Below are positions 4,342-11,586 of a DNA stretch of 64,000 nucleotides, in pieces. Origin of the DNA: Ptychomitrium polyphyllum (taxonomy: Eukaryota); contig OZ316775.1 of the NCBI GenBank assembly GCA_973851085.1, forward strand, positions 496,001-560,000. The letters are read 5' to 3'. The notes below the pieces were generated by a model. That model saw nothing but the letters and a program-made list of their open reading frames with translations. It was not told where the DNA came from and made no database searches. A program made the translations under genes and the position numbers. How positions within the stretch are numbered: position 1 is the stretch's first letter; each line of letters begins with the position of its first letter.

Positions 4342-7098
4342 ATGGCTGATAATAAGTTCGACCGTCAGAAGTTGGCATATTTCCAAGAAATTACTGGCGT
4401 GAAAGATTCGTCTCTCTCGCACGAGATTCTAGATGCTTATGGCTGGGACCTGGACTCGGCAATTCATGTCATGGTGGACAAGAACACGAATGCAATTCCA
4501 GAGTACGAGGGGAGCACACGTGTTTCCGCGCGTAGCAGTGCAGATGTGCAACCAGAACTGCAAGCTAGCACTGCAGAAACGGGTCCTGCATTGGTATCAA
4601 GCAGTTCGTCAGCTCCGCCTGTCAATTTCTTGTCTGCTAGCATCCCTGTCGATGAACAAGGAGTTGCAGACAACAGGTCGTTATTTGAGCGAATTGGGGA
4701 TGGGGAGCACCCTCACGAGAGCACTGGAGAAGTGCAGGGTCCTGATGGTACGACGTTTGTCTGGAGAGTAGTGACACTACCCTTAATTATCTTACGGGGA
4801 AGCTATAATCTCATTTATGGGGTTGTTGGCTTAGGTGTTTTGCTGGCTGGGGGGCTTTTGAGCGCTGGTTTAGGTATGCATAACTCCTCTTGGTCTCCCC
4901 TTTCTTAATTACTGGATGATAGGTCTTCACTTCTGCATGAGTGTATCATTAATGAATGAGTGAGTAGGGCTGTGCAATTTGTTCAATGGCGAAAGTGTGG
5001 CTTGTAGCGGTTATAGTTACCTCAAACCTTATACTAACATCTCTTATTCTCTCCACTGAAGACTTTATAGTAACATCTTTTAAATTTCGTTTGCTTGTAA
5101 AGTAGGGAGTGGCTCATTTTCTGAATGCTAACTTCATCTGTAACTCGCCAGTGCTGTTTTTAGTAACTACTGTTATTGGTACCCTTTTGTGTTGCATGTG
5201 TTTTTTCTCACGGATAATTTCCTGAGTTCCGAATTACTCATTTCTTGATTTTGTACTTTTGGCACTGACAGTGTCTTTTTATTGGCCAGGTGCTTTGCGG
5301 TTGAGCGGGATTCCTAGTCTGGCTGTTGAAGCTGGTTCTCAACCAAATATTTCTCCTATTGCTTCAGTACCATCAGAGGCATCTGAAGCGGCAAAATTTT
5401 TACGAGCATACGAGAGGTGTTATGGTGAATATCATCCGGAGTTTCAAGCTGTTAGCTTTATGGAAGCTTTACGGAGAGCTGGTCAGGAATTTAAGTTCCT
5501 ATTTGTGTATTTACATGACCCACAGCATGTGAACACACCGGTCTTTTGTGAGACGACACTTCGGAATGAAGCTGTTGTAGATTTCATTGATACGAACTTC
5601 ATTGCATGGGGTGCTGATGTTCACAAGACGGAGGGATATCAAATGAGTGTTAGCCTGAATGCGTCTATATATCCCTTTTGTGCGATAATTTTGGGCTCCA
5701 CCGACCAACATATTTCTGTTGTCAGACAGGTATGAGCATGTGTCTGGTTGGGGTCAAACTGCCAGCTGAAGTCATTGGCATACAGCCATTGGCATCGTAG
5801 TAGGTTTTTGTACTTAGAACCAACCTGTAGAGGTATGTTTTCCTGCTCAGAATTCTGTTTTGGGAAGTTGTTGCTCTCTTATTCTATTGGTATTCGAGTT
5901 AGGTCACTTCTAGTTCATGCTGGCTAAAATTTGAGTCTTTCACTTAGAAGGCAGCGCTAATCAAGTAGTACCTTGTTTAATAACTTAATGTAGTTGTTTC
6001 TTTTGGTACAGGCGGAAGGATTTCGGACTGCAGGAGAGTTGATGACACTGTTACAGAATGCAATAGAAGAGCAGAGCGGTCCCTTGATTGCTGGACGGCA
6101 AGAGAAAGAAGCACGGGATTTGAACTGCCGGTTGCGTGAAGAACAAGACGAGGCCTACAGAATAGCTCTTCAGGCTGACCAGGTTCATTATTTTGGTTCT
6201 TCATTTTTTTTTTCGAAGTGGAAATTTTATGCAGTCAGGTTGAGTATGTAGTCCTCTTGCTCTTATACTTGCTACCGAGAGCTTGAAGAAAATGTTCTCT
6301 AGCACTTTGCGCAATATCGTAGAGAGCTCTTGATCTGAATTATGGGTTCTTTTGGATATTATGAAGAGTTTTCATTTGAAATCGTGATTGTTACTCTCTG
6401 CTGTATAAATAGTTTAAAGATGAATTCTCGAACCTGTTTTCACTTGAGCAATTTCATACAGGAGAGGGAACGAAGAGAGCAAGCCGAGGAAGACCGAGCT
6501 GCGAGAGATAGGTATGATGCAGACAGAAAGAAGGAACAGGATGAGAAAGAAGCTGCGCAAGCTGCTTACATTTTGACACAAAAAGAGGAAACCTTAGCGC
6601 AACTTCGACGTGACAAAGCTTTGAACCTTGGCCCAGAGCCACAGAGAGGAGCAGATGTTACTCATGTATGTCTACCTCTATATATCAGAATCAACTCTCT
6701 GCTTAATCTGTCTTACGTCACGTTCGAGATGCATGGTGTCATGTCATATTATCTGCTGCTCCCTTTTTCCAGCTTCATCCTTGTGAACTGTACATTGTCT
6801 ACTGAGAAGGTCCGCATCTTCATGTCTATAATTTAATGAAGTCTTGAAATTGATCTTTCTGCAGGTGGCAGTGCGATTGCCAAGCGGAGAACGTAAGGAA
6901 CGAAGGTTCATTAACACTACTAAGGTTCAAGCTTTGTATGATTACATAGAATCATTACGTAATTTCGAAGCTGACAGTTTTCTCCTCATTTCGAATTTTC
7001 CACGTGTAGTGTATGGTCCCGACAAGTTAGATTTGACACTGAAAGACGCAGGACTCCACCCCCGTATCAGTCTCTTTGTACAAGTGCAAGATTCCTAG
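4342..7098 (+). CDS. PUX10: plant UBX-domain protein (UBA-like, hydrophobic hairpin, UAS, coiled coil, UBX), PUX10/FAF2-like CDC48 adaptor, about 526 aa
   Basis: Exons 4342-4873, 5290-5729, 6012-6182, 6462-6665, 6865-7098, all GT-AG and in frame (1581 nt). Motifs: KLAYFQEITG..ILDAYGWDLDSAI (UBA-like); VWRVVTLPLIILRGSYNLIYGVVGLGVLLAGG (hydrophobic anchor); KFLFVYLH..FCETTL..YPFCAII (UAS); LREEQDEAYRIALQADQ; VRLPSGERKERRF..SNFPR..LKDAGLHP (UBX). Confidence 0.92.
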
Positions 7099-7510: not shown

Positions 7511-7595
7511 ACTCAAATTTCCCCACTCAATTTACCCACTCAATTTTACCCACTCAATTCACCCACTCAATTTACCCACTCGATTTACCCATTCA
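7511..7595. repeat. tandem repeat, about 13-bp unit TTTACCCACTCAA, about 6 copies
   Basis: Seen directly: ...tttccccactcaa tttacccactcaa ttttacccactcaa ttcacccactcaa tttacccactcga tttacccattca. Confidence 0.9.
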
Positions 7596-8176: not shown

Positions 8177-11100
8177 ATGCAAATAGAGATGGAAGAGGAG
8201 GCTCCTCCCACGCCGGCGGTGCTCGAAGGGGCGCTGTCTAGCACGATACTGGACTTGGACCAGACGGAGCAGCACCACCACCACCACAGCTTTGGGGCGA
8301 ACCAGTATGGGCGGGAGACTCAGAACCATCACCGCGAGGGGAATATGGACGAGGGGGACGTTGGGGGGAGCAGTGGCGGAGGGGCAGGTGTTGGTGAGGA
8401 TGAGGATGGGTTGGACGCAGAGGGGAAGGAGCGGGGAGAGAAGGAAGGGGAGGGCATGGCGAGGAAGCGACGCGCGGAGATTTGGCAGGATACGGAGATG
8501 GACGCGCTCGTGAGGGCGTTCCGGGAGGTGCACATGAAGCTCACGTCGGCAGCCGGGACAGGGAAGAAGGTGAAGCAGGTGTTCAAGTCGGCGAATGATA
8601 AGTGGCAGGAGGTGCGGACGCTGCTGCTGGCGTCGGCAGTGGACAGGCAGCCGAAAGAGATTGAGCGCAAGTGGTCGAATCTGTCGACTGCGTTCAAGCA
8701 GATTGCGGATTGGAACAAGAAGCAGGGGCGCCCGAGTTACTGGGACTTGGACGAGAGTCTGAAGAAAGAGAAGACCAAGGCGAAGGAGCTGCCTGCGACA
8801 TTCAGGGTGCAGCTTTTTGATGCCATGGCTGAGTTTATGGGCGATCGCCAGGGCACTCGGAGCCGGTCTCCAGCTCAAGCTCAAGCACAAGCACAAGCAC
8901 AAGTGGGAGCCTTAGTGGCCCTTCCAGGTCCACTGCCTGGCCTCTCTCGTCCACCTCCTGCTCCAGGTGCCTACCAAACTCGTAGCTTTGTCTGCGCTTA
9001 CTTGATATTCTTTCTTCAGGATAGGGATCCTTATGAGGGTTTGTACTCATTTTAGGAGTGTTTCAGGTTCTCATCACGTTTGAGAGGTATGCAAGAATGG
9101 TGATTAAAGTTGTTCTGAATTGGAATATGACAGTGGTTGTGACTATGGGAATGTGTGCAGGGGTTGTGGAGGTACCATTGCCTATGGAGAAGCTCTCTGT
9201 CCATGCCAACCTTTTAGATGCTGCAAATCAGTACGTTCTGTTGTTGTTTGAGGAAAAATGTTGATGTTACTGACTTGACTAGAGAATTGAAGTCTCTAGA
9301 TGGGAGTTGAGAAGAAGTGCAGTTAGGTCAACAGTAAAGGTCTGTGTTTGGCCACTTTCTGAATCCACCAGAATATGTCTTCTAGGGCGTTCGGTACATT
9401 AGATAATATGTATTTAGTATTTAGGGTCAGCTGGTAACATGTCTTGAAGTGAGGCCTCATGCATCTATGATTCTTCTGTAGCAAAAGGCGACGGGTTGTT
9501 ATTCTAGCTCCAGGGAGCTTCAATCCACCGACATACATGCACCTTCGCATGTTTGGTAAGTTCATCTTCTGTTTCGCGTTTTTGCAGGTTTACTTTGTCC
9601 CATGAATACTTAGTGTTAATTATAGAATGTTTTGTTGTATGAATATTTGCTTTATTGCAGTTGCGGAAAGTAATCTACGATTTGTGCATGCAGAGTTGGG
9701 AATGGACGCACTGACAGCAGAAGGATATCATGTGCTGGGGGGCTACATATCTCCTGTTAACGATCTTTACCACAAGAAGGTGCCGTTCTATTCTTCTTGA
9801 GGAAATCTTGTTTTTTTGTGGTTTGAAGTACTTGGTTCCCATTGGTCTTGTTAATACTGTGGCAAAGATGATCCACAGAAGAAGGTTTGGACTCATCTTT
9901 TCTTAGCGCAGATTTAATTTCAATCTGGATTCCGAAGCTTCATTTCTAGTGTAACTTAGCTGTATCTAAGTTCTGATCTGTACACTTGTGAAAATGTCAA
10001 GGGTCTTGTTCCTGCAGAGCACCGTATCAGGATGTGCGAGTTGGCAGTTGCTGACTCACCTTTTATAATGGTCGATTCTTGGGAGGTGAGTTTGGCATAG
10101 TTCTTACTTCTAGTTCCATGTCAGTTCCAAGTTTATCTCTTGCATTGTTACCTGTACCGGTGTCTGAAGGTAGCATCCTGGGTGGGGTTGCTTGAAGTAG
10201 GCGAAGCAGAATTCGTATCAAAAAACGCTCACTGTGCTGGCACGCATCGATATGGTCGTCAATTTCAATAACTTTGCCTCCGACGGTAAGTCTTTTTGTT
10301 CCTCTGAATACCTTGGGTGCTTGTATTTATATGAAACCCCTAGTTCACAATTAGTTGCTGTTCCTGCTTTTTTCAGTAAATATCTTTGTGCCATGCGAGA
10401 TCTTTGTCAGATTGTGCTACTAAATGATATTGCGATTGTTTCTCAGAAAAAGTAAGAGTGATGCTGCTCTGTGGAAATGACCTGCTTGAGTCTATTACAA
10501 GTCCAGGCGTATGGATACCGGACCAGGTTAGTTTTTGTTTCTGGTTTTAGATTCTTATTGCCGATCCTCACATTGTGTACTTCAAATGGGACGACCTAAT
10601 TCTGTTCTGTTCAAATAGAATGTGATGCAACTTGCCTTTGATATTCTGTAAGGCATGTTACGTAATGGTGTGATGTTCTTGAGCCTTGCCTTCAGTCTCC
10701 TTGCTATGTGAACAAGATACGGTAGATCACTTCTCATACCTGCAGGTCCGAACCTTACTGCAAGAATATGGAATTGTGTGCATAAATCGAGATGGCAAGG
10801 ATGCACGACGCCTTGTGTTCGAACACGAAATCCTGTATAATAATCGAGTGAGTAATCTTGGTCACCAAAATTTGTTTAGAATGCAGTTATTGGTTGTTGA
10901 GCATTTATACGGATATGTAATTTTTTGAATTAGGAACAGGTTGTTTTAGAGTTTTTGAACAGATGATACTGTCGACAAGTACGTATTATGCATGTCTAAT
11001 TTTTTTAATCATATGGTTGATAAAGTTGATGCAGATTGTGGATTTCATATTAAGTCGTGGGAGCTCTATTATGTCCGTATGGTGTTCGCAATGTAGCAAT

Positions 11101-11586
11101 TTTCGAAGTTGTTAAGTAGCTGCTCATATCTCTTTATTTTGTATGCAGAGACAGATTTTGATTGTGGATGAGGTCATTCAAAACAATATAAGTGCAACAG
11201 TAATCAGGTATTTTCGGAAACCTTCTTTTCTTTTTACTTCTGGGCATTTTTTGACCATTAGCATGGCTGTGCATTTAGTGCCTCACCACACATTACTGAC
11301 ATCACTCTTGGACATTTCTGCAGAAAAATAACTGTGACGATAAGCAAATGGATATCCTTCGTATTTATCTAGTATGTAGATTTCTATTCAGCAATAACAT
11401 AGTTTAAAGCGAGGGAGACATTTTCTGCTGTTCTGCTGCGCGGCCTCCACACTAACACCCAGCATTATTTTGTGCAGGCGAAATCTGTCCCGAGATTTAT
11501 CTGTGAAGTATTTGATACCTGATGCAGTAATCAGCTATATCAAGATGCACCGACTGTACATGAATGTTCCTTCTCTTCAGTCCTGA
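8177..11586 (+). CDS. NMNAT: chimeric protein: N-terminal trihelix (Myb/SANT-like) DNA-binding domain fused to nicotinamide/nicotinate mononucleotide adenylyltransferase; predicted 512 aa, 10 exons
   Basis: Exons 8177-8966, 9161-9230, 9482-9555, 9694-9779, 10002-10085, 10201-10285, 10447-10526, 10746-10847, 11149-11207, 11478-11586. All are GT-AG with matching phases, total 1539 nt. Exon 1: RKRRAEIWQDTEMDALV...KWQEV...RQPKEIERKWSNLSTAFKQIADW...SYWDL...ELPATF (trihelix). Exons 2-10: VEVPLPMEKLS..VVILAPGSFNPPTYMHLRMFE..VLGGYISPVNDLYHKKGL..AEHRIRMCELA..MVDSWEA..VMLLCGNDLL..PGVWIPDQ..YGIVCINRDG..NISATVIR..LSVKYLIPDAVISYIKMHRLY (plant NMNAT). Each domain call is strong; the exon 1-2 join is predicted. 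Confidence 0.85.
8872..8902 (+). repeat. coding hexamer repeat GC(T/A)CAA x5 encoding an (AQ)5 linker
   Basis: gctcaagctcaagcacaagcacaagcacaa between the trihelix domain and a Pro-rich linker. Confidence 0.85.

What the first reader, a model, noticed from the sequence alone, without database searches (positions are those of the whole stretch)
8177..11586. Trihelix DNA-binding domain fused in frame to a complete NMNAT: a possible NadR-like NAD-synthesising or NAD-sensing transcription factor
Seen in sequence: the trihelix ORF has a donor CCAG|GTGCCT at 8966/8967 (phase 1) that joins acceptor TGCAG|GG at 9161 in frame to GVVEVPLPMEKLS and the rest of a full NMNAT through nine consistent introns. 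The residue matching the start Met of angiosperm NMNAT (MDVPLPVEKLS in Arabidopsis, from memory) is Val here and follows an acceptor, so the NMNAT part looks dependent on an upstream exon. Only 194 bp separate the parts, leaving little room for a separate promoter. Catalytic motifs look intact (GSFNPPT-x-x-H, VDxWE, CGxDLL, ISAT). Basic NLS-like patches (RKRR, HKRRR) and an (AQ)5/Pro linker are present. The trihelix has a GT-1-like start (RAEIW) and an SH4/ASR3-like extension (FKQIADW..SYW..LP.TF). Established: bacterial NadR couples an HTH to an NMNAT domain to repress NAD genes, and animal nuclear NMNAT1 supplies NAD+ to PARP1/SIRT1 at promoters. Inference: this protein could make or sense NAD+ at specific chromatin sites, a convergent eukaryotic NadR analogue. 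I know of no functional description, but cannot search.
Basis: partly seen in the sequence, partly recalled or inferred. Interest (0 to 1): 0.92.

Follow-up and report, generated by a model that had tools for sequence, protein, structure and literature searches.

The report
DNA-binding domain fused to NAD enzyme
In this moss, as in other mosses, liverworts and gymnosperms, the enzyme for a key step of NAD synthesis is encoded joined to a trihelix domain predicted to bind DNA, which would likely put that step of NAD synthesis at chosen genes; flowering plants likely lost the link.

Summary
No RNA run of this organism was available, but relatives show the fusion. Fifteen of 17 long homologues carry both domains (Physcomitrium x4, Sphagnum, three liverworts, Cryptomeria, Taxus, a Gb_ model). 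An intronless contig joins the two parts at the same phase-1 junction. Two paralogous fused lineages share all nine intron phases. In a rooted tree, angiosperm stand-alone NMNATs nest among gymnosperm fused ones (100/99; AU p 8e-5 against the alternative), so flowering plants likely lost the trihelix. The trihelix is better conserved than the enzyme in 17 of 17 comparisons, and the enzyme keeps 66 of 72 near-invariant residues. Best reading: an active NMNAT tethered to DNA; NadR-like ligand sensing is the close rival. It is not a NadR family member. DNA binding, nuclear location and activity are untested. Ten literature searches found no description; other trihelix-enzyme chimeras are known.

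The parts
8177..8966 (+). Exon 1 (coding): acidic/Gly/His-rich N-terminus, basic arm, trihelix domain, linker; ends at phase-1 donor
8462..8473 (+). Basic arm RKRR before helix 1 (K/R-K-K/R-R in all fused relatives); candidate nuclear signal or DNA-contacting arm (inferred)
8471..8845 (+). Trihelix (Myb/SANT-like) domain, residues 99-223, three Trp helices plus a conserved extension; KEIERKWSNL invariant in 21 of 21 rows
8846..8966 (+). Linker with RSRSP, AQ run and Pro-rich stretch; poorly conserved, low model confidence in the homologue
8967..9160 (+). Intron 1 (194 bp, phase 1); holds the unspliced stop 9053-9055 and four ATGs in frame with exon 2 (9097, 9127, 9145, 9151)
   Evidence: same junction spliced in relatives
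9161..9230 (+). Exon 2: start of the NMNAT part (VEVPLPMEKL; angiosperm start Met position is Val)
9482..9555 (+). Exon 3: GSFNPPTYMH nucleotidyltransferase motif at 9513-9542
9694..9779 (+). Exon 4 (NMNAT)
10002..10085 (+). Exon 5: ends in VDSWE (10071-10085)
10201..10285 (+). Exon 6 (NMNAT)
10447..10526 (+). Exon 7: CGNDLL and PGVW motifs
10746..10847 (+). Exon 8 (NMNAT)
11149..11207 (+). Exon 9: ISAT motif at 11188-11199
11478..11586 (+). Exon 10: C-terminus and stop

Best explanation
The gene encodes a trihelix domain joined through a linker to a complete NMN/NaMN adenylyltransferase, and the spliced protein likely binds specific DNA sites through the trihelix and so likely carries an active NAD-pathway enzyme to its target genes. 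Shown: the gene model, the conservation of the fusion, splicing in relatives, the Myb/trihelix fold of the model, retention of enzyme residues, nesting of angiosperm enzymes among fused ones. Inferred: splicing in this species (about 0.95); catalytic activity (about 0.9); nuclear location and DNA binding (about 0.75); that the two halves work together by tethering, with NaAD or NAD+ made beside NAD-consuming chromatin enzymes such as sirtuin and PARP, rather than by allostery. In liverworts the fused gene was the only NMNAT my searches named, so it probably also does the housekeeping job.
For: Fusion: 15 of 17 long hits and 2 of 20 shorter hits carry PF13837 plus PF01467. Four Logan contigs of 1874-2341 bases hold 498-568-aa fused proteins, too short for nine introns (the window's introns total 1871 bp). 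P0022 reads through intron 1 while the near-identical P0002 lacks it at the same place. L001 is one uninterrupted match over residues 1-481 and maps on genomic L007/L008 with five introns removed, intron 1 included. In L002, L003 and L007 a stop lies two codons before the exon-2 acceptor with no ATG, and exon 2 of L002 has no Met. Selection: trihelix identity exceeds enzyme identity in 17 of 17 comparisons; 48 of 131 columns invariant in 21 rows; dN 0.096 in the trihelix, 0.23 in the enzyme, 0.51 in the linker against L001 (synonymous sites near saturation). Fold: model pLDDT 75; best Foldseek row Arabidopsis GT-1 (prob 0.99 but E 0.18); VIA top rows Sap1 Z 8.1 (rmsd 3.0, 91 aligned), NgTRF-DNA 7.2, GT-1 5.6, Zeste-DNA 5.3. 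Enzyme: 66 of 72 columns near-invariant in 117 stand-alone NMNATs are kept; close homologue P0002 passes TIGR00482 (152.7 vs 112.45) and matches Arabidopsis NaMNAT structure 9rpk at E 4e-81. The linker is variable in sequence and low-confidence in the model, which suits tethering. Human NMNAT1 binds PARP1 and raises its activity (PMC12470169, passages).
Against: No binding site, location or activity was tested. [quoted passage not shown] Structural matches are middling and include protein-binding SANT domains. Three annotated records carry one part only: Selaginella P0030 and Cryptomeria P0032 (trihelix only) and Diphasiastrum P0039 (enzyme only, 270 aa); they may be split models or real. This locus has four in-frame ATGs in intron 1. 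Angiosperms live without the fusion.
Confidence: 0.45

Rival explanations
1. Ligand-sensing transcription factor, a convergent NadR analogue: NAD+, NaAD, NMN/NaMN or ATP bound in the enzyme domain changes DNA binding or oligomer state and feeds back on NAD-pathway or energy genes.
For: DNA-binding domain plus NMNAT in one chain, both under purifying selection. Clade B copies drift at active-site columns (P0036 differs at 10, P0033 at 20 of 72, the latter with an aberrant C-terminus) while keeping the trihelix, as a sensor might. A 13-bp array with the GT-element core lies 580-665 bp upstream of this gene. NadR's behaviour is recalled, not from a call.
Against: The linker is long, variable and low-confidence, a poor path for direct allostery. 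Clade A keeps a full active site. The upstream array's GGTAAAT word is absent from 6 of 6 related upstream regions.
Confidence: 0.25
2. Two jobs on one chain without coupling, or a trihelix used for protein contact, assembly or nuclear import rather than for reading DNA; an enzyme-only isoform may do the housekeeping.
For: Trihelix-enzyme chimeras exist in plants (lactamase and kinase types, PMC4195496; PMC6134603). In-frame ATGs in intron 1; a paralogue in the same sample stays alike for 22 bases before the acceptor; Diphasiastrum P0039 is enzyme-only. Loss in angiosperms was tolerated.
Against: No enzyme-only start just upstream of exon 2 in L002, L003, L007. The fusion was kept in both paralogous lineages and in four Physcomitrium paralogues; all five trihelix loci lacking a full enzyme part are broken by stops (three translated; L011 and L012 give the same match as L010). 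The invariant stretch lies on helix 3, the recognition helix of this fold (recalled).
Confidence: 0.22
3. Two neighbouring genes in this species: the trihelix frame ends at 9053-9055 and NMNAT starts at an ATG in intron 1 or at 9184; the fusion is a modelling artefact.
For: No RNA of this organism was seen. The donor GTGCCT is a weak match to consensus. ATGs 9097-9151 are in frame.
Against: End-to-end 81% identity with a fused Physcomitrium protein, spliced contigs of relatives at the same junction, same phase in both paralogous lineages, no conserved sequence after the donor in read-through products.
Confidence: 0.04

Closest known systems
Arabidopsis NaMNAT/NMNAT (PDB 9rpk, 9rpm) and other angiosperm NMNATs
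   Same: Orthologous enzyme domain: nests with gymnosperm fused copies in the tree; starts MDVPLP at the Met that is internal in gymnosperm fused proteins; same motifs.
   Different: Angiosperm enzymes are 217-267 aa and stand alone; no trihelix.
Plant trihelix (GT) factors, GT-1 (PDB 2jmw, 2ebi)
   Same: PF13837 above cut-off, three Trp helices, best structural rows are GT-1 and other Myb-type DNA-binding domains.
   Different: Only 24-26% identical to GT-1; the C-terminal dimerisation region of GT factors (PMC4195496) is replaced by an enzyme; no angiosperm-named orthologue among 37 hits.
Trihelix-enzyme chimeras At5g63420 (metallo-beta-lactamase) and Os04g33300 (kinase)
   Same: A trihelix fused to a nucleotide-handling enzyme in plants (PMC4195496, passages).
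   Different: Different enzymes; these persist in angiosperms, this one is missing there; neither is an NAD enzyme.
Bacterial NadR (features recalled)
   Same: DNA-binding domain N-terminal to an NMNAT domain.
   Different: Trihelix rather than bacterial HTH; enzyme of the NadD/eukaryotic class; no ribosylnicotinamide kinase domain; analogy by convergence only.
Human nuclear NMNAT1
   Same: Homologous enzyme (1gzu, E 1e-52); acts in the nucleus and binds PARP1 (PMC12178909, PMC12470169).
   Different: Has no DNA-binding domain of its own; recruitment is through partners.

Membership tests
NMN/NaMN adenylyltransferase (NadD/eukaryotic NMNAT) | CTP_transf_like domain and TIGR00482 above curated cut-offs | tested here: met
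   Tested on close homologue P0002 (88% identical over the enzyme core): PF01467 63.1 bits vs 21, TIGR00482 152.7 vs 112.45; two single window exons hit PF01467 just below cut-off.
NMN/NaMN adenylyltransferase (NadD/eukaryotic NMNAT) | Active-site motifs GSFNPxTxxH, KxxL, WE, CGxDLL..W, IS(S/A)T | tested here: met
   66 of 72 near-invariant columns kept; six changes L294I, A314G, R376K, S407N, F413I, S473A; aligned to human and Arabidopsis structures.
NMN/NaMN adenylyltransferase (NadD/eukaryotic NMNAT) | Adenylyl transfer from ATP to NMN or NaMN | not testable with these tools
   Needs an assay.
Trihelix (GT) transcription factors | Three helices each with a conserved Trp; Myb_DNA-bind_4 | tested here: met
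   W103, W143, W166 invariant in 21 rows; PF13837 36.3 vs 27; helices in model.
Trihelix (GT) transcription factors | Fold like GT-1 | tested here: inconclusive
   GT-1 is Foldseek rank 1 (prob 0.99, E 0.18) and VIA rank 3 (Z 5.6, rmsd 4.5, 79 aligned); other Myb-type domains score as well or better.
Trihelix (GT) transcription factors | Fourth helix motif (F/Y)(F/Y)xx(L/I/M)xx(L/I/M) and a C-terminal dimerisation region (PMC4195496) | tested here: inconclusive
   LFDAMAEF fits the motif only in part; the region after it is linker and enzyme.
Trihelix (GT) transcription factors | Binds GT elements, nuclear | not testable with these tools
   Needs EMSA, DAP-seq, localisation.
SH4/ASR3 trihelix clade | Groups with SH4-clade proteins in a tree | not tested
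   No SH4 sequence was retrieved; the likeness of the extension is recalled only.
NadR | Bacterial N-terminal HTH (recalled) | tested here: not met
   The domain is PF13837 Myb/SANT-like; no HTH family in Pfam scans of the fused homologues.
NadR | NadR-class NMNAT domain (recalled) | tested here: not met
   P0002 and P0036 pass TIGR00482; no NadR-named model among their 9 and 5 NCBIfam hits.
NadR | C-terminal ribosylnicotinamide kinase (recalled) | tested here: not met
   The model ends 38 residues after ISAT; only two Pfam domains in fused homologues.
NadR | NAD-dependent repression of NAD synthesis genes (recalled) | not testable with these tools
   Needs ligand-dependent binding assays.

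The most novel reading that the evidence does not exclude
Ancestral land plants had an NAD-sensing transcription factor: their NAD-pathway enzyme NMNAT is itself a sequence-specific DNA-binding protein whose ligand state sets gene expression, a eukaryotic counterpart of NadR that arose by convergence, was duplicated before mosses and gymnosperms split, and was cut back to a plain enzyme in flowering plants.
Probability: 0.27. Interest if true: 0.92.

Novelty: new variant of a known kind. Interest (0 to 1): 0.78.

Why it matters
A 2025 review says evidence for NAD recycling in the Arabidopsis nucleus is not yet available (PMC12178909, passages). This fusion offers a hard-wired link between NAD synthesis and DNA in non-flowering land plants, and makes the question directly testable in Marchantia and Physcomitrium by removing one exon. 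It also suggests that the much-studied angiosperm enzyme is a trimmed, derived form. Both domains are known, the architecture already sits unremarked in automatic annotations, and other trihelix-enzyme chimeras are in print, hence 'new variant' rather than 'categorically new'.

Tried and rejected
No whole genome is held for the window, so a stand-alone NMNAT in this species could not be sought. No RNA holder listed; the two runs listed are unspliced contigs of one sample. Cluster membership could not be looked up. ESM Atlas gave no usable hit for P0002 or P0001. The full-length AlphaFold model was poor (pLDDT 53) and served only to show the enzyme fold and a low-confidence linker. The two-domain complex job gave no answer (score 0.00). 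No synteny between the window's flanks and the 16 loci by tblastx. Three look-ups of earlier findings returned nothing. Trihelix-only hits as true stand-alone genes: rejected for most, as they stop just after the exon-1 linker like intron read-through or are broken; left open for P0030 and P0032. HKRRR as a nuclear signal: not conserved. Autoregulation through the upstream array: not supported in relatives. Stand-alone NMNATs of 273-461 aa were not searched in the 90% collection, and no fern, hornwort or named alga appeared among hits, so those groups are open. Literature: searches gave 0 papers; one gave 19 (listing only, none about a fusion by title); 20 of 859 listed; 25 of 5,702 listed, none holding NMNAT; 1, a cancer review; 2; 1; 20 of 35; 20 of 24. 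The supplements of PMC4195496, which list moss trihelix genes, could not be read and may bear on prior notice.
Full report
Observation. The window holds an intron-rich plant gene at 8177-11586 (+). Joining ten exons at GT..AG boundaries gives one open frame of 512 aa, with intron phases 1,2,1,0,0,1,0,0,2 (a first try with three boundaries off by one failed). Exon 1 passes Pfam Myb_DNA-bind_4; exons 2-10 give a complete NMNAT. The organism is a moss by likeness: 81% identity over 511 columns to Physcomitrium patens P0001 and a place among moss rows in the trees. Only one copy lies in the window.

Is the fusion real? No RNA run of this organism was listed, so the junction here is inferred. Relatives settle the kind. 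Searching the trihelix among proteins of 462-2000 aa gave 17 hits, 15 with both PF13837 and PF01467: Physcomitrium (4), Sphagnum fallax, Calypogeia, Marchantia paleacea, Riccia, Cryptomeria, Taxus, a Gb_ model (Ginkgo by its prefix, my inference) and four Logan contigs. Of the other two, one is trihelix only and one (Picea) has the trihelix, the first NMNAT exons and then a hAT domain. The Logan contigs are 1874-2341 bases for 498-568 aa, too short to hold nine introns. Among proteins of 144-461 aa, 2 of 20 hits carry both domains; P0028 runs on into the first enzyme motif, P0022 reads through intron 1 where near-identical P0002 lacks it, and most others stop just after the exon-1 linker, as intron read-through would. 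Selaginella P0030 and Cryptomeria P0032 are annotated as trihelix only and stay open.

DNA of relatives. A metagenome scan (44 of 64 parts scanned) gave 16 loci. Eleven show the trihelix followed by NMNAT sequence on the same strand, one of them cut by its contig end after exon 2; five (L010-12, L015, L016) lack a full enzyme part, and the three translated are full of stops. L001 is intronless, matches residues 1-481 in one piece and maps onto genomic L007/L008 at 95-100% with five introns removed, among them intron 1 in phase 1. In L002, L003 and L007 a stop lies two codons before the acceptor, and exon 2 of L002 has no Met, so the enzyme part there cannot start just upstream. L013, of the second paralogous lineage, has all nine introns in the window's phases; 7 of 9 were resolved for L002. 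Several of these loci are near-copies from like samples, so they stand for about three genes. The window's own sample holds a paralogue with the trihelix end 165 bases before the exon-2 region.

History. Among proteins up to 272 aa, the best 120 of 443 NMNAT hits were angiosperm-named or unnamed, apart from a 270-aa Diphasiastrum model; no bryophyte-named record was listed, and the top row is a 163-aa fragment. A profile search of cluster representatives (best 150 of 5,191) supplied outgroups; of its 139 new proteins, 2 matched my trihelix profile: P0187 (trihelix only) and P0160, which starts with the second half of a divergent trihelix (E 3e-7; 28% over 53 aa; not seen by Pfam) before an NMNAT. 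In a 43-row enzyme tree rooted on two fungal-like rows (8 angiosperms of those held; P0182 and P0196 dropped for lack of the anchor motif; P0003, P0015, P0017 not used), all 16 fused rows fall in one clade of 26 (96/89), and the angiosperms (100/100) sit with gymnosperm fused copies (100/99). Holding angiosperms outside that set is rejected (p-AU 8e-5; group named after seeing the tree; one search agrees without outgroup). The trihelix tree shows the same two lineages, A and B, each with Sphagnum and gymnosperm members (97/97). Gymnosperm fused proteins have Met at the point where angiosperm enzymes begin. So: one gain before the moss/seed-plant split, one early duplication, loss of the trihelix in angiosperms. 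Ferns, hornworts and algae were not resolved; P0158, stand-alone with a long N-terminus, is sister to the fused clade.

Anatomy. The trihelix is more alike than the enzyme in 17 of 17 comparisons (for instance 70-75% against 60-64% for the four complete seed-plant-type clade A rows), and KEIERKWSNL is invariant in 21 of 21 rows. Against L001, dN is 0.096 for the trihelix, 0.23 for the enzyme part compared and 0.51 for the linker. The domain folds with pLDDT 75; its best matches are Myb-type DNA-binding domains (GT-1 first by Foldseek, E 0.18; Sap1 Z 8.1, NgTRF 7.2, GT-1 5.6, Zeste 5.3), which are middling scores. The enzyme keeps 66 of 72 columns that are at least 97% fixed in 117 stand-alone NMNATs; liverwort and complete gymnosperm clade A copies differ at 1-3, clade B at 10-20.

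Mechanism. The simplest use of a strongly conserved trihelix on a flexible linker with an intact enzyme is tethering: the protein binds chosen DNA sites and performs adenylyl transfer there (0.45). Human NMNAT1 binds PARP1 and raises its activity (PMC12470169, passages). Against it, the Arabidopsis enzyme prefers NaMN, the last de novo step is cytoplasmic and NAD+ enters nuclei through the pores (PMC12178909, passages). Ligand sensing in the manner of NadR (0.25) and an uncoupled or protein-binding role (0.22) are the rivals; two separate genes is unlikely (0.04). None of the functional steps was testable here.

Comparison. It is an NMNAT and a trihelix-domain protein by profile tests; it is not a NadR (three recalled defining features not met). 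Trihelix chimeras with a metallo-beta-lactamase and with a kinase are in print (PMC4195496, passages; PMC6134603, passages). Passages searched in PMC12694506, PMC4195496 and PMC6134603 hold no mention of an adenylyltransferase; PMC7075366 and PMC2936527 were read as passages for background, the latter describing a 524-aa Chlamydomonas NMNAT with low-complexity additions and no DNA-binding domain mentioned in what I saw. Ten searches found no description of the fusion in a library that lacks most subscription papers. Verdict: real, ancient, apparently undescribed; new variant of a known kind; interest 0.78.

Noticed in passing
window 7511-7595: 13-bp tandem array, 6.4 copies, whose minus strand holds the GT-element core G-Pu-W-A-A-W (PMC4195496), 580-665 bp upstream of the start; GGTAAAT occurs 3 times against 0.1 expected in 1.5 kb, but 0 times upstream of 6 related loci.
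   Followed up: partly
window about 5226-7098 (+): Upstream neighbour has Pfam FAF1 and thioredoxin-like hits and looks like a UAS/UBX-domain (PUX-type) gene; no synteny with the related loci.
   Followed up: partly
window 9139-9160: The last 22 bases of intron 1, with ATGs 9145 and 9151, stay alike in a paralogue from the same sample and in another moss's read-through product P0019: splice signal or a short alternative start.
   Followed up: partly
P0201 (unnamed representative, 384 aa): A non-plant-type NMNAT with an N-terminal HTH_psq domain above Pfam cut-off: a possible second, independent DNA-binding NMNAT, or a merged gene model.
   Followed up: no
P0012 (Picea sitchensis, 478 aa): Trihelix and first NMNAT exons joined to a hAT transposase dimerisation region: likely a transposon-captured splice form.
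   Followed up: no
P0004-P0017 N-termini: Long forms share a basic-then-WW motif upstream of the trihelix from mosses to gymnosperms; the window's short subclade lacks it.
   Followed up: no
L010, L011, L012, L015, L016: Decayed trihelix copies with stops and frameshifts in Sphagnum-like contigs.
   Followed up: partly
P0158 (unnamed, 397 aa): Stand-alone NMNAT with a long N-terminus resembling a targeting peptide, sister to the fused clade; may show the state before the fusion.
   Followed up: partly
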